DNA from: a virus
Reading direction: 5' to 3' (one strand)
DNA length: 64,000 nucleotides
Virus record (IMG/VR): IMGVR_UViG_3300045988_124153
The notes under the pieces are model-generated. The model did not search any database, was not told the DNA's origin, and saw only the letters and a program-made list of their open reading frames with translations. A program made the position numbers and the translations under genes. Shown here piece after piece: positions 1-55,060 of the stretch (its first letter is position 1; each line of letters starts with the position of its first letter).

Positions 1-274
1 GAAAGTTGGGCTTATTGTATTTTTCTTAAAAATAAGGTATGCTTGATTATCAATTAGTTATGTTTTATAATACCCGTATTTTCGGACATACTTATTGTAT
101 TTTTTTTGTTTTATGTGGTGGTTTTTATTAGTTGCTGACTTGTATTTTTTATCGGTTGGTATCCGTTCTATGTTGGAGTATGGAGCAGATCAGTATAATG
201 TTGTAATGGTCTTTTGCTTTTCGTTTTTGGCTTTGATTATAGGCTTAAATATCTATATTGATAGGAGGAGCAGA

Positions 275-470
275 CGGTAGGGCGTGGGCTGAAGACTCTC
301 TATTCTCTCTATGGAATGATATTATCTCCAAACACCCCACACTTCATGCCAGAGTATAAGCTTGTAGCGCTCTTCGTATGCCGGTAGTGAGGCGGTAGGG
401 CGTGGGTTCTATGCGGAAAGCCGGAGGATCAGCCGGGGTTGGAGAGGGGGAGAGGGAGGGCACTCTCTTC
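275..470. repeat. GC-rich non-coding region with direct repeats of CGGTAGGGCGTGGG (275-288 and 393-406; a partial CGGTAG copy at 382) and several short hairpins, e.g. CCGG-N8-CCGG near 421-440
   Basis: Repeats and hairpins read directly in the sequence; no ORF of at least 60 aa covers it except a hydrophobic TTG-start ORF at 95-280. Confidence 0.45.
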
Positions 471-862
471 CCACAAAATTCAACAGATCAGCGTTTTAAA
501 ACAGCATAATGTAGGTTTTCCCACAGATTAAGGGTTAAGGACTGCATTATGTGAGTATTTTTTTTTCAATCGGAATGTATAACAATTAAAACATAAACAA
601 CATGAACGTATATGACTTTGCGCCTGACTTAGATTTGAGTAAGGAGGGAGAAGGTTCTATTTTTGGGGGTGAAAGGAATAGAAGGCAGTGATGGTATAGT
701 ATATGCTAAGGTAGTTAGCTGTGTAGACGTTAAGGATTACAGTTGTGATAGGTGTATTTTTTATGATTGTTATAAGGATAAATGTTTATTATCGCGTAGT
801 GATAGTTGTATAGATGGAGATTGGATTTGTAGGTACGAACAGGCTGCCATAGAGGGGGAGTA

Positions 863-930
863 GGCGGCGCCTTGGGCTAAGGCCTGCGGTTGTAGGTGGA
901 ACGTAGGTCGGAGCAGAGCCGGAACAGTTT
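863..930 (+). other. GC-rich element starting GGCGGCGCC right after a TAG stop; shares GGCGGCGCC...AGGTCGG with the element at 7292
   Basis: Motif GGCGGCGCC at 863-871 and AGGTCGG about 40 nt downstream; same arrangement at 7292-7340. Confidence 0.3.
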
Positions 931-971
931 ATTGTGGAACTAAAAAAAAATAAAAAGGAGGAGATAGCGAT

Positions 972-1052
972 ATGAAAAAGGCATTTAAGATATTTTCTAT
1001 TATGTTTGTCATAGAAATAGTGCTGATAGCTATTTTAGATGCTATGGCGTAA
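972..1052 (+). CDS. 26-aa hydrophobic peptide (MKKAFKIFSIMFVIEIVLIAILDAMA) preceded by AGGAGG
   Basis: Strong SD (aaggaggag) 8 nt upstream of the ATG; ORF too short for the track; sits just upstream of the tRNA-like element. Confidence 0.25.
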   Translation: MKKAFKIFSIMFVIEIVLIAILDAMA

Positions 1053-1177
1053 GTGAGAAAAATTTCTTCATTAATTTTCTTATGCTTTAGACAGAATGCT
1101 CCCATCTGCGAAGATCGGAGCATTTGCTTTATGGGATTCATGGTGCAGCAAGTCGGTTCGATTCCGGCGATCTCACA
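1053..1177 (+). tRNA. tRNA-like element A: canonical T-arm (GTCGG-TTCGATT-CCGGC) plus a GTGAG...ATCTCAC acceptor-like helix, but about 125 nt long, so an intron-containing or degenerate tRNA, or another tRNA-like RNA
   Basis: GGTTCGATTCC T-loop at 1155-1165; the 5' GTGAGAA (1053) pairs with 3' ATCTCAC (1170-1176) for 6 bp; the length is non-canonical. Confidence 0.3.
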
Positions 1178-1601
1178 CAACATTAAAATAGGGAAGAACA
1201 TGTTAAAAGAAGAATTTGAAGAACTGATTAAAAGGGAGGTAAACGAAAATCAGTATAAAAACATAGAAACGGCATACGAGGCTTTGCCGGAGTATATGGA
1301 TAAGATGTATTTAGCAAGTGCTATTTCAAATGATATTGGGAAAGCTATTAATGTCTTATCGTTTTTAGGATCGCACATAAGCGAGTTAATGGGTTCGATA
1401 ATAATCGAAAGGCAAAAAGGTGGAATCATGTGCCTATGATTTAATAAACAAATCGCATGAGGAGGATGACTTGAAAGCAAGAGAGATTGCCGTGCGATTA
1501 ATAGGAGAGAGGGAAACAGTGGCATACACAGTAAAAGAAGGGCTGCCATTGTGGGAACAAGATAAAAAGTTTATAATAGAATTAATAAAGGAGGATAGAA
1601 A

Positions 1602-1949
1602 ATGAAAGACGGTATTGTATTGCATCCAGAGCATGGGTTGAATCCATCCATAGAACTATGCACAGTATGCGGTGAAGAGATGGGGATTGCTTTATTAGGG
1701 AATAACATCAAAGGGCAGGCGCCGCATCATATATGCACGGGAGAAATATGTGACAATTGCAAAAAGATAATAGATGACGGAGGTTGTTTTATTATCGAAG
1801 TTGAGGATGGATCAGATCAAAAGAATCCGTATCGTACAGGGAGATATTGCGCGATAAAGAAAGAAGCAGCAAAGAAAATACTTGGACAGGAGCATAGTAT
1901 TGTGTACATGGAAAAGTCTGCGTACAGTCAAATAATACCACAAAAATAA
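1602..1949 (+). CDS. Zn-ribbon hypothetical protein (CTVCGEE...CDNCKK)
   Basis: ORF track entry; SD aaggagga upstream; two CxxC pairs. Confidence 0.45.
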   Translation: MKDGIVLHPEHGLNPSIELCTVCGEEMGIALLGNNIKGQAPHHICTGEICDNCKKIIDDGGCFIIEVEDGSDQKNPYRTGRYCAIKKEAAKKILGQEHSIVYMEKSAYSQIIPQK

Positions 1950-2331
1950 AGAAAGATATGTTTACAAAAGAAGAGCGATTATTCATATGGAAAAAGGTAT
2001 ATGAGATGATTGATAGGTTAGAGGATGGGGAATACATATGTGTTGCGTTAAGAAATGTAGTGTTTATGTATTTCAAAACACATAAAAATATCTATGAGTT
2101 TCGTTCAGACGAAATGGTGAGAATATATTTCCCGGAATTGGAGGAGAAGATAAGTATGGCCACAGAACCAGAGGAAACAAGAACGTTTTATGGGTGGTTT
2201 GGTTGTCTTAGTCCAGAAACGAAGGAGGTAAGGCTGAATATTGTGAAAGATATTATAAAAGAATTAGAATAGTATTTTTGTTAATCTATTTTATTCATCA
2301 AATTAAGTTTTGGGTTTTGGCATGTCGGTTC

Positions 2332-2427
2332 GTGAGGATAGGCATGCCTATTTCTGCATCATAGAGGGGATGACGCGGCGTGCCGGTGCGTATGTGCCGG
2401 TCCTGGTTCGATTCTGGGCATCTCACA
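2332..2427 (+). tRNA. tRNA-like element B: T-arm CCTGG-TTCGATT-CTGGG, which carries compensatory changes relative to element A, plus GTGAGGA...ATCTCAC; about 96 nt
   Basis: Same conserved 3' module as element A (GGTTCGATTC...ATCTCACAAAC) with a covarying T-stem; U8-A9-like TA follows the 5' helix. Confidence 0.3.
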
Positions 2428-15240: not shown

Positions 15241-15903
15241 ATGAATAATTTTGTAATAGATACTCCAGATAATTTCTGGCAAATAAGATGGCTTGACAAG
15301 TATATGGAAGGCCACAAAGGATTCATAGCTGGTGGATGTTTTAAAAATATCCTTTCCGGAGAAAGAGTAAAAGACATTGATATTTTCTTTGAAAGTGAAA
15401 GCGATTTTCAGGAGGCTATTGATTCGTTCAATGATGAAAAACATCAGAAGGAAGGATGGAGATTTAAGTACAGAAATGAGAAGGCATGTGCATTCCAGAA
15501 AGAGGGAGAAAAAGTATGGATAGAGTTCATAGAGTCAGAGTTTGGAAAGCCAGAAGAGATTCTTAGGAGCTTCGATTTTACTGTGACAAAAATGGCCTAC
15601 TATAAGGAGCCTAAATACGAAGAAAAAGAAGATGATTATTTTCCATTCTCATCTGCAAGTATAGTAGCATACGAGTACAAACTACTCTATCATGAGAAAT
15701 TCTTCGAACATCTTCATATGAAGAGACTGGTTATTGACGAGAATATCCCTTTTCCAGTAAGCACATGGGAGCGCTCATATCGGTATAAAGGATATGGTTA
15801 CAATATGTGCCGGGAGACAAAGAAAAAACTTCTACAGGCTATTAAAGGTGTAAACGTAGAGGAGGAAGATGTATCTTTGTACACTACTGGAGGATGGGAT
15901 TAA
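15241..15903 (+). CDS. Nucleotidyltransferase (Pol-beta superfamily) with a head domain like CCA-adding enzyme or poly(A) polymerase: FIAGGCFKNILSGERVKDIDIFF
   Basis: The GG...R..DID motif is typical of tRNA nucleotidyltransferase and PAP head domains. Confidence 0.45.
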   Translation: MNNFVIDTPDNFWQIRWLDKYMEGHKGFIAGGCFKNILSGERVKDIDIFFESESDFQEAIDSFNDEKHQKEGWRFKYRNEKACAFQKEGEKVWIEFIESEFGKPEEILRSFDFTVTKMAYYKEPKYEEKEDDYFPFSSASIVAYEYKLLYHEKFFEHLHMKRLVIDENIPFPVSTWERSYRYKGYGYNMCRETKKKLLQAIKGVNVEEEDVSLYTTGGWD

Positions 15904-17220: not shown

Positions 17221-18018
17221 ATGATAACATCAGTAAAAATAAAAGACAATACAAAAACTCCATTTGAATATGTTTCGGATATAGAAGCATTTGAAAATGG
17301 CAGAGAATTTATTTTCAAGCCAGGAGTGAATGTGATTATAGGGAAAAACGGTAGTGGAAAATCAACCTTGCTTAACATCATATCAATGTATGCGTTATGC
17401 GAGAAGTCCATGTGCTCTGAAATACCGATCGAGGCACTGGATTTTCCACCTATATTTGATGATGATGACAAGGTTCTTGATGGGATTGACATATTATCCG
17501 ATTATGCAGGAAAGGTATTCCGTTTATTGCCATCGGCGGAGATGAATCGAGATAGCGTATTGAAAAACATCAGCAACTTAGATTTGTATGTGAATAATAT
17601 TCGAAGATCTTATGGAGAGAAAGTGGTGTTATCATTGGAATCACTTTTCAATTTAATGTTCGGTCAAAAGGATTATACGTTTCCAATACAAGATCTTGTA
17701 GAATACAAGAAAAAATCAAATGCGTTTTGGATTAAAAGAATTGATAACCTGTTGAAGTATTATGAAAGAAACCGCATAACATTAACAGAAAGCAGTTTTG
17801 AATACACGGTTCTCATGGATGAGCCAGATAGGAATCTTGACATTGACAACATAATGCAAATTTATAATGTATTGTCATTCCATAAACCACAAACACAAAT
17901 TATAGCCATAGTACACAATCCGGCATTGATTTACAAGTTAAGCAAATTAGATTGTGTGAACTTTATAGAGATGACAGAAGGGTATCTTAGTAAAACTTGT
18001 ATATTTGTATCTAACTAA
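17221..18018 (+). CDS. Small ABC/AAA-type ATPase (Walker A GKNGSGKST, Walker B VLMDEPDRNLD), AAA_15/21-like
   Basis: P-loop and D-E-containing Walker B read directly; such ATPases are common in abortive-infection and defence or anti-defence modules. Confidence 0.55.
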   Translation: MITSVKIKDNTKTPFEYVSDIEAFENGREFIFKPGVNVIIGKNGSGKSTLLNIISMYALCEKSMCSEIPIEALDFPPIFDDDDKVLDGIDILSDYAGKVFRLLPSAEMNRDSVLKNISNLDLYVNNIRRSYGEKVVLSLESLFNLMFGQKDYTFPIQDLVEYKKKSNAFWIKRIDNLLKYYERNRITLTESSFEYTVLMDEPDRNLDIDNIMQIYNVLSFHKPQTQIIAIVHNPALIYKLSKLDCVNFIEMTEGYLSKTCIFVSN

Positions 18019-39707: not shown

Positions 39708-40898
39708 ATGAGATTAGTTGAAAGGCATATAGTTAAAGACAACCGGTTTGAGGATATTTGCTTCAAATCCGGCTTGTTATATAATTATGTTCTTTACAAC
39801 ATTCGTCAAGGAATCTTTTCAGGTAACTATTTAAAGGAATTTGATTTATCAAACAAACTTTGCAAAGAAAACCAATTTGATTTCAGGAATTTACCTAATC
39901 ATGTTTCACAGCAGGTGATTAAACAGGTATTTAAAAACATAAAATCCTGGATGAGATTAAAGAAAGATTTTGAAAAGAATCCTTCGAAATACGGTAATCA
40001 TCGTCCTCATCTTCCTTCGTATAAGAAGGGCAAGAAACAAAACATGGTTGTTTTCACCAACTGCAATTGTAGGGTAAAGGGTGATAATTGTATTTATTTT
40101 GTTAAAGATATAATCAAACCTATCAAAACAAATGTAAAGAAAGACGAACTAAAACAAGTTAGAATAATCCCTCAAGCTACATGTTATGTAGTAGAGGTAG
40201 TTTATGAAAGAAAGGAAACTGATCTTGGTTTAAACAAAGACAATTTTCTTTCGATTGATTTAGGATTGAATAATTTATGTTCATGTATTAGTAATGTAGA
40301 AACTAATTCTTTCATTATAAACGGACGGGTTATGAAATCAGTAAATCAGTGGTACAATAAGAAGAAAGCTAAGTTGATGTCTTTTGTTGGTAATAAGGGA
40401 ACTTCAAATAGAATAAGAAAAATTACTTTGTTTAGAAATTGTTGGATAGAAGACAAATTGCATAAAATCAGTAGATACATTGTAGACTTTTGTAAATCTA
40501 ACAATATAGGAACAATCATCATTGGATTAAACAAAGAATGGAAAAACGAGATAAATATCGGTAAAAGGAATAACCAACATTTTGTTTCTATTCCTCATTC
40601 TAAATTGATTGATAAGATTGTTTACAAAGCAAATCTTTTAGGGATAGAGGTAATTACTCATGAGGAATCTTACACATCAAAGATTGACCATCTTGCTTTT
40701 GAACCTCTAAAGAAACAGGAATCCTACTTAGGAAAAAGAAAGAAACGTGGATTGTTTCAAAGTTCAATTGGAAAACTGATCAATGCAGATATTAATGGAT
40801 CAATTGGAATAGCAAGAAAAGTAGTCGGTGATTCTTTCATTGGAAAGATAATCGATAGTGGATTTGTGTTTAATCCGGTTAGAATAAATATTTTGTGA
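39708..40898 (+). CDS. tnpB: TnpB-like (OrfB_IS605) protein with RuvC-I (SIDLGLNN) and RuvC-III (INADINGSIGIARK) but the zinc finger replaced (S.TSKID... no CxxC): a degenerate or derived TnpB
   Basis: Motifs read directly; the Cys of the Zn ribbon are absent. Confidence 0.6.
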   Translation: MRLVERHIVKDNRFEDICFKSGLLYNYVLYNIRQGIFSGNYLKEFDLSNKLCKENQFDFRNLPNHVSQQVIKQVFKNIKSWMRLKKDFEKNPSKYGNHRPHLPSYKKGKKQNMVVFTNCNCRVKGDNCIYFVKDIIKPIKTNVKKDELKQVRIIPQATCYVVEVVYERKETDLGLNKDNFLSIDLGLNNLCSCISNVETNSFIINGRVMKSVNQWYNKKKAKLMSFVGNKGTSNRIRKITLFRNCWIEDKLHKISRYIVDFCKSNNIGTIIIGLNKEWKNEINIGKRNNQHFVSIPHSKLIDKIVYKANLLGIEVITHEESYTSKIDHLAFEPLKKQESYLGKRKKRGLFQSSIGKLINADINGSIGIARKVVGDSFIGKIIDSGFVFNPVRINIL

Positions 40899-42083: not shown

Positions 42084-43235
42084 CTAAAGCAAATGGGATT
42101 CTTGGATACAAACGCAAGAAACCCCGACATTACTATCGTTGGAATTACTCTTACTCTCCAATTCGGAAATGCCCTTCCGAAGTATATTACGGGATGCAAG
42201 AACATCACGGTCGTTGACCGCGCCGCACGACGGGCATACCCACGTGCGGTCGCGTAACGACAGTCCTTTATTAATGCAGCCACATTCACAAGTTTTGGAA
42301 GAAGGATACCATTTGTCAATCTTATGTACTATCACTCCATACTTTGAAGCAATATATGTAAGTTTGTCAATAAAAGAAGAATGACTGAGATCAGAAACTT
42401 TCTTTCCCCACAAACGTTTCATTCCTTCAATGTTTAGATCTTCAATAAAAATATAATCATATTGTTTACACAAATCATGAGCTAATTTCCATTGAAAGTC
42501 TGATCGAAGATTGTTTATTTTACGATACGCTTGTTGTAGTTCAAACAGTCTCCTTCTTTTATTATTGGATCCTTTCTTTGCATTAGAAAACCGTTTGTTT
42601 AGTTTTCTAATCTTGTTTTGATATTGTTTGAGGAATAATGGAGAATCGATTTTGCTACCATCACTTTTAGTTAGATAAGTTTTCAGACCAAAATCCAATC
42701 CGATAGATGCACCATCATGTGTCTTTCTATAAGAGTTTACAGGATTATGGTCTGTAACTATAATCAAACTAAAACGGGAACAGGTTTCTCTAACTATTCT
42801 AATTTGTTTAACATTACCTTCATAAGGTCTACTGTATGAAAACTTAAAATGTTTCTTTCCTTTGTTAATTGTTAGACAATTTCCATTCAGGGTAAACCCT
42901 CCTTGTTTGAATACAAAAGAATTGAATTTCTCCGGTGATTTAAACTTAGGAGGTCGTTTAGCCAACTTCTTGAAGAAGCGATTGTATGCTGAATCTAACC
43001 TTTGAATAATTTCTTGTGTTGTTTGGGAATGAAGAAGATTTCTCTTAATTCTTTTAGAGAAATGTTTTTGCATCTTGCCAACTGAGATATATTTCCCAAA
43101 CAGTTTGTAATACCTACGTTGTAGAGCTAAAGCATGATTCCATACAAAACAGCATTCGCGAAGTATCTTGACAAGATACTTCGTTTTCTTTGAATAATAT
43201 ATGTTATATTTGTATGAAATCATTTTTAACCACAT
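42084..43235 (-). CDS. tnpB: TnpB RNA-guided endonuclease (IS200/IS605 family, IS1341-like): RuvC-I IGLDFGLKT, RuvC-II IFIEDLNIEG, Zn ribbon CECGC...CPSCG, RuvC-III NDRDVLASRNI
   Basis: All catalytic and Zn motifs present. Confidence 0.8.
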   Translation of the reverse strand: MWLKMISYKYNIYYSKKTKYLVKILRECCFVWNHALALQRRYYKLFGKYISVGKMQKHFSKRIKRNLLHSQTTQEIIQRLDSAYNRFFKKLAKRPPKFKSPEKFNSFVFKQGGFTLNGNCLTINKGKKHFKFSYSRPYEGNVKQIRIVRETCSRFSLIIVTDHNPVNSYRKTHDGASIGLDFGLKTYLTKSDGSKIDSPLFLKQYQNKIRKLNKRFSNAKKGSNNKRRRLFELQQAYRKINNLRSDFQWKLAHDLCKQYDYIFIEDLNIEGMKRLWGKKVSDLSHSSFIDKLTYIASKYGVIVHKIDKWYPSSKTCECGCINKGLSLRDRTWVCPSCGAVNDRDVLASRNILRKGISELESKSNSNDSNVGVSCVCIQESHLL

Positions 43236-53470: not shown

Positions 53471-54704
53471 TTACTTTAATATAATCGGATGCCTCTTCCC
53501 TCTAATGAGTTTAAACTTTTTGCGTGAAACATCTTTTGAATTTTCTCCGTTGAAATCCCTGATATTGAAACTCCCTGATTTTCTCCTTCCATAAACAAAT
53601 AATATTTTATTGTTATACAACACTTTATCAAACAATCTAAAACCGAAAACCTCAAAAGGAGCTTGATTGTTTTTCTTCTTTCCTCCTTTTAAAATTTTCA
53701 TTTTATGTATTTGCCTGTTATGTCTACGAATTAAACGTTTTAAATATTGACGTTCGATTCGTTTCGCATTAATGTTCATAGAAATGACAAACGCGTCGGA
53801 TGTATGGGATTTTTTCAATACCGTATTTAATCCGATTATGTTTCGTAATGTAACCAAACGTCATAGAAACTCTGTCGTATCTGGATCTCAGTTCTTCATA
53901 CAACTTCCATTTCATGATCCCCATTACGGCCGCGTCGCGGAGCGACGATCCCCGTTTGATCTTCAAATCTATATTACCTTTATGGTATTCTTTGTGACAA
54001 GTTTCACATAAGGTAATAAGATTAGAAGGGGAATCACCTCCCGTTTTTCGGGATTCAAGATGATGGACATTAAGGATCTTATCTTTTGACTTCCCTTTAC
54101 AATACTGACATTTATGCCCATCCCTTGCTAAAACATACTCCCTTGTGTTCCAAAATCCAAGTTGATCACCTTCCTGGTATTCTTTACCTAATATTTCAGG
54201 ATTCTTAATCTTTTGAGTATCAAATTGAGCTACTTCAATAACAATACGAGATATTGGTAATATAGAACATACATTGTCAATAACACGAATATGGGCGTCT
54301 ATTTTGTACTTCACCGAAGGTGCTACCCATCCAGGACGCTTACTTTTTATTCTGTTATCGAAACGAGGTTTTCTATACCTCAATCTATTCCGTCTTGTTC
54401 TTCGTAGCTCCCTTCTGGTAGACAAAAGATCTACGATATCATTTCTAAGGATAACTTCACTACTGTAAAGTTCTTTGCTTTTCGTCGTAGCTGATAAACC
54501 AACATGTTTAGTACCAGCATCAACGCCTAACACAATTTCCTGTTTGTAATCAGATGTTACGTACGTTAATCGGATGGTAAACGGACATAGGTTCACAACG
54601 ACTGCCTTTTTATCTTTAAGCAGTCTCCTAACCTTACCATGCCTCGTTGTTGGCATCATAGGTTTACCATCTATGTCTTGTACGTACACCATATCTACAA
54701 ACAT
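53471..54704 (-). CDS. iscB: IscB-like RNA-guided nuclease: PLMP (DGKPMMPT), RuvC-I (LGVDAGTKHVGLS), Arg-rich bridge helix (RRELRRTRRNRLRYR), RuvC-II (IVIEVAQFD), HNH (CQYC...HH...GGD...LC..CH), RuvC-III (KKSHTSDAFVI) and a TI-like C-terminus; a +1 frame change near 53838-53843 separates the 311-aa and 128-aa track ORFs
   Basis: All IscB hallmark motifs in order across two frames; the junction maps between ...FGYITK and IIGLNTVLKKSH. Confidence 0.75.
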
Positions 54705-55060
54705 TTTTAATGTTTATTCAACATAAGTCAGGAATATTTCATCCTGTTAGTACCCATCGCCAATGTTATAAGAGGTTTTATATAATGGCAACACTGTTTC
54801 GTCAAATACACTACTCCTGTTTAATCACCATCCTTAGAGCTACGGACTTGGGCAAACATCCGTAGGTAACTATCTATTCTCAAATAACGTAGCCTTCGTT
54901 TCAAGGCTTAGGCTAATATCCGGACCATTTATGGTACATTAAAACCTTATAATGAAATTATATTGTTTTAATGTTATTTCGGATATCAATATATTTACGT
55001 CAAACATACAGATATACTTTTTACCCCAATCGATTCTTTTTATCTTACGACCTAATTTAA
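54705..55060 (-). ncRNA. Putative omega-RNA region upstream of iscB: non-coding, with several stable hairpins (CTACGGA...TCCGTAG 54840-54865; AGCCTT...AAGGCT 54891-54908)
   Basis: About 370 nt with no ORF immediately 5' of iscB on the same strand, as expected for IscB omega-RNA; structure inferred by eye only. Confidence 0.35.

What the first reader, a model, noticed from the sequence alone, without database searches (positions are those of the whole stretch)
1053..2427. Two tRNA-like elements with a covarying T-arm and shared acceptor helix but non-canonical length
Both elements end with GGTTCGATTC(C/T)GG(C/G)(G/C)ATCTCACA(A/C)AC. Their T-stems differ by compensatory changes (GTCGG/CCGGC versus CCTGG/CTGGG), which argues for selection on structure. 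Both have a 5' GTGAG(A/G)A that can pair with 3' ATCTCAC, and B has a TA at the U8-A9 position. Yet A spans about 125 nt and B about 96 nt. I could not fold canonical D and anticodon arms by eye. They may be intron-containing or long-variable-arm tRNAs (possibly suppressors), tRNA-like regulatory RNAs, or att-core remnants. A is preceded by an SD-driven 26-aa hydrophobic peptide ORF. A nucleotidyltransferase with a CCA-adding-like head domain is encoded at 15241.
Basis: seen in the sequence. Interest (0 to 1): 0.5.

Follow-up and report, generated by a model that had tools for sequence, protein, structure and literature searches.

The report
Anticodon-less tRNA-like modules in gut phage
The two elements are real, conserved RNA structures that copy only the top half of a tRNA (acceptor-like stem plus T arm) and sit between small early genes of a human-gut phage; they are not decoding tRNAs, and they most likely serve as cutting signals for the host's tRNA-processing enzymes.

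Summary
The shared 3' motif is real: 2 copies in the window, 0 expected by chance. It recurs in more than 100 related human-gut phage contigs, usually as an A/B pair.

No detector calls a tRNA. ARAGORN in default mode calls none of about 200 copies, and neither tRNA nor tmRNA reaches E <= 10 in Rfam. There is no D arm and no anticodon arm.

In B, GTGA is the GNRA loop of a conserved hairpin. Divergent copies (L063, L018) and two further paralogue types (C, D) support a proximal 6-7 bp acceptor-like stem that abuts the T stem:
- A: 1132-1138 with 1169-1175.
- B: 2366-2372 with 2419-2425.

Each module is therefore a stable hairpin, a short spacer, and a 45-61 nt tRNA-like domain. It ends in C73, has no encoded CCA, and lies on the sense strand in an intercistronic spacer.

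Best explanation (inferred): processing signals for RNase P and RNase Z, like plant-mitochondrial t-elements, that also release small tRNA-like RNAs comparable to T4 RNA C. The intron-tRNA, suppressor and att-remnant readings are not supported. I rate it a new variant of a known kind, of moderate interest.

The parts
972..1052 (+). Context: 26-aa hydrophobic peptide ORF with a strong SD. Its stop codon directly precedes module A.
   Evidence: The length is conserved in 100 of 101 copies, with 10 synonymous and 18 non-synonymous distinct codon variants.
1053..1058 (+). It is complementary to UCUCAC (1171-1176) and could at most form an alternative pairing.
   Evidence: It pairs in 44 of the 46 distinct full-length type-A sequences in which the 5' strand could be located. 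It breaks in L036 (2 mismatches) and L063 (an A.C mismatch), and it leaves a 2-nt gap to the T stem.
1094..1125 (+). Module A upstream hairpin: 9 bp, a 1x1 C.C internal loop, 4 bp, and a GCGA (GNRA) tetraloop.
   Evidence: RNAalifold. Three pairs show compensatory double changes (AU<->GC in 14 sequences, UA<->CG in 4, CG<->AU in 1). The helix is 98.8% paired, and for the whole structure 0 of 500 shuffles reach the observed covariation score.
1132..1138 (+). Module A acceptor-like 5' strand UGGGAUU (positions 1-7).
   Evidence: It pairs 7 of 7 with 1169-1175. In L063, three changes in the 3' strand all keep pairing with it.
1139..1151 (+). Module A linker CAUGGUGCAGCAA. CAUGGUG, with its GG, is invariant; the 3' half is the most variable part of the element. 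It stands where the D and anticodon arms would be.
1152..1168 (+). Module A T arm: GUCGG UUCGAUU CCGGC.
   Evidence: The stem is 100% paired, and two pairs vary through U.G/C-G.
1169..1176 (+). Module A acceptor-like 3' strand GAUCUCA (66-72) plus C at the discriminator position (73). No CCA is encoded. An A-rich tail follows, and the next start codon is at 1200.
2319..2348 (+).
   Evidence: RNAalifold. It is 99% paired, and four different single changes in the 3' strand all keep pairing. Alternative pairings of GGCAUGCC are broken by the G->A variant found in 5 sequences (my reading of the alignment).
2366..2372 (+). Module B acceptor-like 5' strand GGGGAUG. Positions 2-7 pair; 1:72 is a G.A mismatch.
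   Evidence: In L018, pair 4:69 changes from G-C to A-U, a compensatory change.
2373..2401 (+). Module B linker ACGCGGCGUG, then a variable-arm-like hairpin (CCGGUGC GUAU GUGCCGG, 2383-2400), then U.
   Evidence: The hairpin is 98.5% paired, and 5 of its 7 pairs vary on one side through G.U. It is deleted in L041 and L074 with the rest of the element intact.
2402..2418 (+). Module B T arm: CCUGG UUCGAUU CUGGG.
   Evidence: It is 99.5% paired. Pair 51:63 is seen as U.G, U-A and C-G.
2419..2426 (+). Module B acceptor-like 3' strand CAUCUCA (66-72) plus C73. No CCA is encoded. An A-rich tail follows, and the next start codon is at 2448.
   Evidence: The covariance-model match spans 2365-2431.

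Best explanation
A and B are two paralogous copies of a phage-encoded tRNA-like module that cannot decode.

Anatomy:
- A stable hairpin comes first (8-9 bp, a 1x1 internal loop, 4 bp, a GNRA loop).
- A 6-17 nt spacer follows.
- Then comes a compact tRNA-like domain. It is a 6-7 bp acceptor-like stem that runs straight into a 5-bp T stem with the canonical UUCGAUU loop.
- The two strands are joined only by a short GG-containing linker (A) or by a linker plus one hairpin (B).
- There is no D arm, no anticodon arm and no encoded CCA. Position 73 is C.
- The modules lie on the coding strand in the spacers between small early genes. A third copy (type D) lies about 1.8 kb upstream in relatives.

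Proposed mechanism (inferred, not shown):
- The 12-bp acceptor/T-arm stack is the minimal substrate of the host tRNA-maturation enzymes.
- RNase P would cut at the 5' side of the domain, near 1131/1132 and 2365/2366.
- RNase Z would cut after C73, at 1176/1177 and 2426/2427.
- The polycistronic early transcript would thus be cut at these points.
- The upstream mRNA would end just after a protective hairpin.
- The downstream cistron would start about 20 nt before its start codon.
- A 45-61 nt tRNA-like RNA would be released. The CCA-adding enzyme could extend it, and it might have a role of its own.
For: Shown:
- The repeat is non-random.
- It is conserved as an A/B pair in more than 100 related viral contigs and in GenBank phage csAssE-Sib.
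- The structures keep pairing: 99.4% in A and 98.8% in B, against at most 54% when the partner columns are slid.
- The A hairpin has true compensatory changes.
- The proximal acceptor stem is supported in three ways.
  - L063 has three 3'-strand changes, and all of them still pair.
  - L018 changes pair 4:69 from G-C to A-U.
  - Four paralogue types use different sequences in the same geometry: UGGGAUU/GAUCUCA, GGGGAUG/CAUCUCA, CGAAAUG/CAUUUCA and UGGUUGU/GCAACCU.
- For type D, RNAalifold finds an acceptor stem, a central arm and a T arm with no prior input.
- The many G.U pairs would be A.C mismatches on the other strand, so the fold belongs to the sense RNA.
- No promoter-like enrichment and no terminator lies nearby.
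- All genes from 1 to about 41 kb are on the same strand.
- The phage's own real tRNAs also lack encoded CCA, so host 3' processing and CCA addition are already needed.

Precedents:
- Plant-mitochondrial t-elements share the GGTTCRANYCC motif and define mRNA ends through RNase P and RNase Z (PMC1920247).
- RNase P cleaves phage M3 RNA, C4 RNA and operon mRNAs (PMC11143913).
Against: - There are no expression or end-mapping data. Cleavage, CCA addition and stability are all inferred.
- Within types A and B the acceptor stem hardly varies. Its support comes from two divergent copies and from comparing paralogues.
- The pooled covariation statistics are weak: 25 of 500 shuffles reach the observed score.
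- Pair 1:72 is mismatched in B, C and D, and position -1 is not U. Both are suboptimal for RNase P (general knowledge).
- The distal GUGAG complement in both A and B is unlikely by chance (about 2% each by my estimate). It may mark an alternative fold.
- The whole intergenic spacer, not only the tRNA-like domain, is nearly invariant in these closely related phages.
Confidence: 0.45

Rival explanations
1. The modules are genes for stand-alone, stable tRNA-like small RNAs that act in trans, like T4 species 1 RNA (RNA C). They might be decoys or sponges for a host factor that binds the acceptor/T-arm half of tRNA. Candidates are CCA-end-modifying toxins, EF-Tu, RNase P, or AlaRS through G3.U70. 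Cutting the mRNA would be incidental.
For: - T4 rnaC is a 139-nt RNA with a perfect T arm followed by an acceptor-like 3' strand, with long hairpins in place of the D and anticodon arms.
- Its function is still unknown (PMC9697503).
- Rfam does not recognise it either.
- Most A and B copies have G2-C71, G3.U70 and G4-C69, as in tRNA-Ala and tmRNA.
- The phage encodes a class II nucleotidyltransferase-like protein.
Against: - No own promoter or terminator was detected.
- G3.U70 is lost in L063, L018, type C and type D.
- C73 and a mismatched 1:72 pair differ from alanine identity.
- The covariance model scores T4 rnaC at only 14.5 bits, the same as a real tRNA.
- This reading does not exclude the processing model, since processing would produce the small RNA.
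Confidence: 0.25
2. The RNAs are about 125 nt (A) and about 96 nt (B), closed by the distal helix GUGAG(A/G)/(U)CUCAC, with hairpins inside, as in T4 RNA C.
For: - The 6-mer complement exists in both elements and pairs in most copies.
- The single-sequence minimum-free-energy fold of A uses it, z = -2.46.
- T4 rnaC has this kind of layout.
Against: - In B the GUGA is the GNRA loop of a hairpin built exactly like the covarying hairpin of A.
- The distal helix gains mismatches in L036 and L063 (A) and L018 (B), while the proximal stem stays paired.
- It leaves 2 unpaired nucleotides between the T stem and the helix, which is not tRNA geometry.
- Types C and D have no distal complement but do have the proximal stem.
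- The fold of B alone is no better than shuffled sequence, z = -1.04.
Confidence: 0.15
3. They are degenerate tRNA-gene remnants or att-type cores. They persist as DNA homology patches where gene cassettes are exchanged, with no function at the RNA level.
For: - Alternative gene cassettes begin directly 3' of each element. After A, 56 copies have one cassette and 40 the other. After B, the split is 61 to 33. A-to-B spacing is about 850 or about 1250 nt.
- L100 is a deletion made by recombination between the T loops of A and B.
- tRNA-gene fragments are common in prokaryotic genomes (PMC9897764, listed).
Against: - No bacterial or archaeal tRNA in one genome per 185,579 species has this 3' end.
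- The stems keep pairing through many substitutions, including compensatory ones.
- The 5' strand of the acceptor stem lies next to the element and co-varies with the 3' strand.
- The same hairpin-plus-domain design is kept in three paralogues per genome.
Confidence: 0.08
4. They are decoding tRNAs, either intron-containing or with a long variable arm, possibly suppressors.
For: - ARAGORN in intron mode calls B as tRNA-Val(gac) with a 21-nt intron.
- At an 80% score threshold it calls A as tRNA-Ser(cga) with a 51-nt intron.
- B has a variable-arm-like hairpin.
Against: - Default ARAGORN calls none of about 200 copies, yet it does call the phage's real tRNAs.
- The Rfam tRNA model does not reach E <= 10.
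- The intron-mode model needs an intron at position 32/33, a 3-bp D stem with two G.U pairs, and a C.C mismatch in the acceptor stem.
- From general knowledge, bacteria lack a splicing endonuclease, and their tRNA introns are group I introns of 200 nt or more.
- The candidate loop in B varies in length.
- Natural variants delete the variable hairpin.
Confidence: 0.03

Closest known systems
t-elements of plant mitochondria (tRNA-like processing signals)
   Same: - A perfectly conserved pseudouridine-arm motif (GGTTCRANYCC) lies outside any canonical tRNA.
- The cloverleaf is non-canonical or incomplete.
- The element sits in the sense orientation next to coding regions.
- It is proposed, and partly shown, to direct RNase P and RNase Z cuts that make mRNA 3' and 5' ends and release a small RNA that can receive C/CA (PMC1920247).
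   Different: - The setting is an organelle, not a phage.
- No homology is implied.
- Here the module also has a conserved upstream GNRA hairpin and occurs as three paralogues in a phage early region.
- Cleavage is untested here.
Bacteriophage T4 species 1 RNA (rnaC / RNA C)
   Same: - It is a phage-encoded RNA that does not decode.
- It has a consensus T arm followed directly by an acceptor-like 3' strand, and hairpins in place of the D and anticodon arms.
- No Rfam family covers it.
- Its function is unknown (PMC9697503).
   Different: - T4 rnaC is 139 nt with the 5' partner at its far 5' end, and it sits inside the tRNA gene cluster.
- Here the supported 5' partner is proximal (domains of 45-61 nt).
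- The modules lie between protein genes, about 9 kb from the tRNA cluster.
- Sequence similarity is limited to the T loop: 14.5 bits with the model built here.
tRNA-like domain of tmRNA
   Same: - An acceptor stem stacks on a T arm.
- There is no D stem and no anticodon arm.
- A single-stranded GG-containing stretch stands in for the D loop.
- Most copies have G3.U70.
- The 5' end is made by RNase P.
   Different: - There are no pseudoknots and no tag reading frame.
- Nothing emerges between the D-loop analogue and the T arm except, at most, a short hairpin.
- Position 73 is C rather than A, CCA is not encoded, and 1:72 is often mismatched.
- ARAGORN in tmRNA mode finds nothing, and the Rfam tmRNA families give only a 17-nt T-arm match at E = 2.3.
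Bacterial Y RNA YrlA
   Same: - It is a non-coding RNA with a tRNA-like domain.
- It is also found in phages.
- One member is cut by RNase P and receives CCA (PMC4201824).
   Different: - In YrlA the order is T arm, closed acceptor-like stem-loop, then D arm, and the RNA ends form a Ro60-binding stem.
- YrlA is encoded next to a Ro60 (TROVE) gene.
- Here the T arm is followed by an open 3' strand, there is no D arm, and no Rfam match appears.
- No TROVE domain was seen among the 20 large ORFs I scanned.
mascRNA (MALAT1) and herpesvirus MHV68 tRNA-miRNA-encoded RNAs (from general knowledge, not tested here)
   Same: - A tRNA-like element embedded in a longer transcript recruits RNase P and/or RNase Z.
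- This creates the end of the neighbouring RNA, which a nearby structure protects.
- The released tRNA-like RNA gets CCA but is not aminoacylated.
   Different: These are eukaryotic systems with full cloverleaf-like folds. The protecting structure is a triple helix or a pre-miRNA hairpin, not a GNRA hairpin.

Membership tests
Canonical decoding tRNA | Detected as a cloverleaf by tRNA finders and models | tested here: not met
   ARAGORN in default mode found 0 in the window and never called A or B in 123 loci, although it called the phage's Met, Gln, Arg and Cys tRNAs. Rfam RF00005 gave no hit at E <= 10. Only intron mode gives a forced call.
Canonical decoding tRNA | Anticodon arm (5 bp plus a 7-nt loop) and a D arm | tested here: not met
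   A has only a 13-nt linker between the acceptor and T stems. B has a 10-nt linker plus one hairpin with a 4-nt loop. D has one arm with a 5-nt loop.
Canonical decoding tRNA | T arm with a consensus loop, and a 7-bp acceptor stem contiguous with the T stem | tested here: met
   The loop is UUCGAUU, closed by G53-C61. The acceptor stem is 7 bp in A and 6 bp plus a 1:72 mismatch in B, with no spacer.
tmRNA | Tag reading frame and pseudoknots between the acceptor 5' strand and the T arm; detected by ARAGORN or Rfam | tested here: not met
   ARAGORN in tmRNA mode (-m) finds nothing even at an 80% threshold. Rfam gives only a 17-nt T-arm match to beta_tmRNA, E = 2.3.
tmRNA | G3.U70 alanine identity pair with A73 and CCA | tested here: inconclusive
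   G3.U70 is present in 35 of 40 distinct sequences. It is replaced in L063, L018, type C and type D. Position 73 is C, and CCA is not encoded.
YrlA / bacterial Y RNA | Order T arm, closed acceptor-like hairpin, D arm; terminal Ro60-binding stem; adjacent Ro60 gene | tested here: not met
   The arrangement is different. There is no Rfam hit. No TROVE domain appeared in the 20 ORFs scanned; that scan did not cover every ORF.
T4 RNA C-type phage tRNA-like stable RNA | Consensus T arm followed directly by an acceptor-like 3' strand, with non-tRNA hairpins replacing the D and anticodon arms | tested here: met
   Compare (T4).
T4 RNA C-type phage tRNA-like stable RNA | Sequence or profile homology, and a location in the tRNA cluster | tested here: not met
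   The model built from A, B and C scores T4 rnaC at 14.5 bits (E = 0.27), equal to a real tRNA. The modules lie about 9 kb from the tRNA cluster.
T4 RNA C-type phage tRNA-like stable RNA | Accumulates as a discrete stable RNA in infection | not testable with these tools
   No expression data were available.
t-element-type processing signal | GGTTCRANYCC arm plus an acceptor-like stem outside a canonical tRNA, sense-oriented beside coding regions | tested here: met
t-element-type processing signal | Transcript 5'/3' ends coincide with the element's borders; cleavage by RNase P and RNase Z; non-templated C/CA | not testable with these tools
   This needs end mapping or in vitro cleavage.
tRNA-gene fragment / attP core | Identity to the 3' part of a host tRNA gene | tested here: not met
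   The genome-contig scan gave 23 loci. One is a true copy of the phage element itself, and the other 22 are chance matches. None overlaps an ARAGORN tRNA.

The most novel reading that the evidence does not exclude
This gut-phage lineage uses a 'tRNA punctuation' system. Three anticodon-less mini-tRNA modules, each preceded by a protective hairpin, would be cut out of the early polycistronic RNA by host RNase P and RNase Z. This would set the ends and stabilities of the individual early mRNAs. The released 45-61 nt acceptor/T-arm minihelices, after CCA addition, would act as decoys for host factors or defence toxins that attack the acceptor end of tRNAs. To my knowledge, neither punctuation of phage mRNAs by tRNA-like elements nor acceptor-end decoy RNAs has been described for phages.
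Probability: 0.15. Interest if true: 0.75.

Novelty: new variant of a known kind. Interest (0 to 1): 0.55.

Why it matters
Phage-encoded tRNA-like RNAs that cannot decode have been known since T4 RNA C, and their function remains unexplained.

This case offers a compact, well-delimited version: 45-61 nt, three paralogues per genome, more than 100 natural variants, and a fixed position between genes. The phage lineage is common in human-gut metagenomes.

The anatomy gives sharp, cheap predictions. It names exact cleavage sites, predicts CCA addition, and predicts a protected upstream 3' end. These can be tested in vitro or by mining metatranscriptomes.

If the modules prove to be processing signals, RNase P/RNase Z punctuation would extend from organelles and eukaryotic long non-coding RNAs to phage operons.

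There is also a practical point. Such elements escape tRNA finders and Rfam, and intron-tolerant settings can mis-call them as tRNAs.

Tried and rejected
- **Rfam.** The gathering-threshold scan of the whole window found only HEARO, far from these elements. The E <= 10 scan of 900-2600 found nothing relevant. Nothing was found in the homologous 4.7 kb of L002.
- **Local hairpin UAGG-CAUG-CCUA in B, and the long-range GGCAUGCC/GGCGUGCC pairing taken from the single-sequence fold.** Both are broken by the G->A variant seen in 5 sequences. Rejected.
- **A 4-bp 'anticodon-like' stem CAUC/GAUG with loop AUAGAGG in B.** The loop length varies from 7 to 10 nt, and GAUG is needed for the acceptor stem. 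Rejected as an anticodon arm; it may be a weak alternative pairing.
- **A third partner for the A tail (GGUG-C-AG).** Broken in the CAA variants. Not pursued.
- **Own promoters or terminators.** None beyond chance.
- **Element A as the coding N-terminus of the next gene.** Frame 1053 is open through A, but a 1-nt indel within A in many relatives rules this out.
- **Literature.** Searching 'csAssE' gave nothing relevant. The catalogue of about 10,000 viral structured RNAs (PMC10690425) could not be checked for these loci because no supplement text is held.
- **More divergent relatives.** A second viral scan (ATTTCACAA tail) gave only type C and a few B copies.
- **Model R1.** It finds no further copies in the window and does not reach type D.
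- **ORF 15241.** No PDB relative by sequence and no PADLOC hit. Homologues carry only Pfam PF26128, which I could not interpret.
Full report
**Source of the window.** Region 900-2700 is 96.8% identical to phage csAssE-Sib (OR575929; human gut, 151 kb, Caudoviricetes). It is the only one of 50,697 GenBank phage records with a match. That record annotates only hypothetical proteins there and no RNA. All long ORFs from 1 to about 41 kb lie on the + strand. Further along are a primase-like protein (DUF6371 plus zinc ribbon), a DnaB-like helicase, a PD-(D/E)XK nuclease and a second helicase. The finding therefore sits in a run of small early-type genes.

**Check of the observation.**
- The shared 23-mer occurs twice, at 1155-1177 and 2405-2427, with none expected by chance.
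- ARAGORN finds no tRNA or tmRNA in the window.
- Rfam at gathering thresholds finds only a HEARO RNA at 54746-54986.
- A permissive Rfam scan of 900-2600 gives only a 17-nt T-arm match to a tmRNA model, E = 2.3.
- Single-sequence folds are unremarkable: z = -2.46 for A and -1.04 for B.

**Relatives.**
Most carry one A and one B copy on contigs of 80-250 kb.
- These gave 39 and 43 distinct sequences.
- A third type, C, occurs in an unrelated phage, upstream of a DNA methylase gene.
- The same pattern run against one genome for each of 185,579 bacterial and archaeal species gave one true copy. It is a 3.9-kb contig binned with a Veillonella metagenome-assembled genome (MAG). The other 22 loci are chance matches. 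None coincides with a tRNA. This argues against att-site or host-tRNA remnants.
- The phages do carry real Met, Gln, Arg and Cys tRNAs about 9 kb upstream of A. ARAGORN finds those but never A or B in 1.1 Mb of loci. The real tRNAs use the same UUCGAUU loop and also lack encoded CCA.

**Upstream hairpins.**
- Both modules contain a hairpin of the same design.
  - A: GAAUGCUCC-C-AUCU-GCGA-AGAU-C-GGAGCAUUU (1094-1125).
  - B: GGCAUGUC-G-GUUC-GUGA-GGAU-A-GGCAUGCC (2319-2348).
- The A hairpin has three pairs with compensatory double changes. No shuffle out of 500 reaches the observed covariation for the whole A structure.
- In B, four different single changes all keep pairing.

**Which 5' strand pairs with the 3' strand.** Several upstream segments are complementary to it.
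- The distal GUGAG(A/G) is compatible with most copies. It breaks in L036 and L063 (A) and in L018 (B).
- A proximal strand is compatible with all copies at positions 2-7 (A) or 3-7 (B). In A it is UGGGAUU (1132-1138). In B it is GGGGAUG (2366-2372).
- In L063 the 3' strand changes at three positions, and all three still pair with the proximal strand.
- In L018, pair 4:69 changes from G-C to A-U.
- The proximal stem begins at the base directly after the T stem, as in tRNA. The distal helix leaves two unpaired bases.
- Type C (CGAAAUG/CAUUUCA) has only the proximal option.
- Searching the loci for T-loop motifs outside called tRNAs revealed a fourth type, D. It lies 1.65-2.3 kb upstream of A in relatives, about 600 nt before the window starts.
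- Type D's stem is UGGUUGU/GCAACCU. RNAalifold recovered an acceptor stem, a central arm and a T arm unaided, with compensatory pairs in the T stem and the central arm.
- Pooled over A, B and C, 93.9% of cells pair, against at most 54% when partners are slid. The shuffle statistics are only modest, and within type A the stem never varies.
- I therefore regard the proximal stem as well supported but not proven. The distal pairing remains a possible alternative state.

**Resulting anatomy.**
- Each module is a hairpin, a spacer (6 nt in A, 17 nt in B) and a tRNA-like domain: 1132-1176 (45 nt) and 2366-2426 (61 nt).
- The domain lacks the D and anticodon arms.
- Its linker keeps an invariant GG, possibly a D-loop mimic; this is inference.
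- B has a dispensable variable-arm-like hairpin, which is deleted in L041 and L074.
- Position 73 is C in all four types. CCA is not encoded, and an A-rich tail leads to the next start codon 21-24 nt on.
- The frequent G.U pairs make the fold specific to the sense strand.
- There is no promoter enrichment and no terminator.
- A model built from A, B and C scores 48-89 bits on A and B and about 14 bits on real tRNAs and on T4 rnaC. It finds no further copy in the window.

**The intron-tRNA reading.** The call needs a 21-nt intron at position 32/33, a 3-bp D stem and a C.C mismatch. A is called only at an 80% threshold, with a 51-nt intron. I treat these as forced fits.

**Mechanism.**
- A 12-bp acceptor/T-arm stack with a consensus T loop is the minimal substrate of RNase P, RNase Z and the CCA-adding enzyme (general knowledge).
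- Plant-mitochondrial t-elements with the same motif define mRNA ends in this way (PMC1920247).
- RNase P is known to cut phage M3 and C4 RNAs and operon mRNAs (PMC11143913).
- The constant pairing of a stable hairpin just upstream of each domain fits protection of the new 3' end.
- This is inference. No expression data were available.

**Closest phage precedent.** T4 RNA C has a T arm, an acceptor-like end and internal hairpins. Its function is unknown (PMC9697503), and Rfam does not cover it.

**Side claims.**
- The 26-aa ORF is conserved in length.
- ORF 15241-15903 has class II nucleotidyltransferase motifs A and B but lacks the EDxxR motif; this is my reading. Its family hits are weak. 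A link to these RNAs is conjecture.

**DNA-level behaviour.** Alternative gene cassettes start directly 3' of A, B and D. L100 is a deletion formed by recombination between the A and B T loops. The conserved elements therefore also act as recombination anchors.

Noticed in passing
L002:7765-7888 (+); would lie about 600 nt upstream of window position 1: A third tRNA-like paralogue, type D: UGGUUGU ... UUCGG UUCGAUU CCGGA GCAACCU C. It has a central arm and an upstream structure in which two helices both show compensatory changes and cross each other, so it may be a pseudoknot. A TATAAT box lies just upstream.
   Followed up: partly
window 53769-54986 (-): An IscB-like ORF (RRXRR plus HNH, 53769-54704) with its HEARO/omega RNA immediately upstream of it (54746-54986; Rfam 95.1 bits). 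An OMEGA-type mobile element sits inside the phage genome.
   Followed up: partly
window 39708-40898 (+) and 42084-43235 (-): Two TnpB-like ORFs (OrfB_IS605 plus the Cas12f1-like TNB domain) in opposite orientations.
   Followed up: no
window 1200-1605 versus L001:1464-1868: A single 134-aa ORF in csAssE-Sib is split in the window into 1200-1439 and 1420-1605 by one extra A in an A-run near 1412-1416. This is either a frameshift or a sequencing error.
   Followed up: no
directly 3' of 1181 and 2436; L001:2690-3125: Gene cassettes are present or absent immediately after each tRNA-like element. After A, 56 copies have one cassette and 40 the other. After B, the split is 61 to 33. The 141-aa gene inserted after B in csAssE-Sib is flanked by the 8-nt direct repeat AATAAAAC.
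   Followed up: partly
L100:7690-7820 (-): A natural chimera with the body of A joined to the 3' end of B at the T loop. The genes between them are lost and the T stem is broken.
   Followed up: no
window 1-970: About 1 kb with only tiny ORFs. It holds a 14-nt direct repeat, CGGTAGGGCGTGGG, at 275-288 and 393-406, and G+C-rich stretches (410-470 and 850-925). In L002 the corresponding region with few long ORFs spans about 3.3 kb, and Rfam finds nothing in it.
   Followed up: partly
window 15241-15903 (+): A 220-aa protein with class II nucleotidyltransferase motifs (IAGGCFKNILSGERVKDIDIFF and RSFDFTVTKMA) but no EDxxR motif. It has 885 homologues in metagenomes, many of them 311 aa long, so the true start may lie upstream.
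   Followed up: partly
window 17221-18018 (+): A phage ORF whose N-terminal P-loop ATPase region matches the ATPase components of defence systems (mad3, AriA, PtuA and GajA models in PADLOC).
   Followed up: no
L133:5403-5461 (-) and L137:963-1040 (-): Two Asgard-archaeal MAG contigs share a conserved stretch of about 40 nt, TTGGTTCGATTCC.A.AATCTCACA.AAATC, that resembles the 3' motif (22.8 and 18.7 bits with model R1). The flanks do not form a good T stem. It is probably unrelated, but I have no explanation for it.
   Followed up: no
L002:583-944 (+): The phage lineage encodes four canonical tRNAs (Met-CAT, Gln-TTG, Arg-CCT, Cys-GCA) without encoded CCA. None lies in the window.
   Followed up: partly
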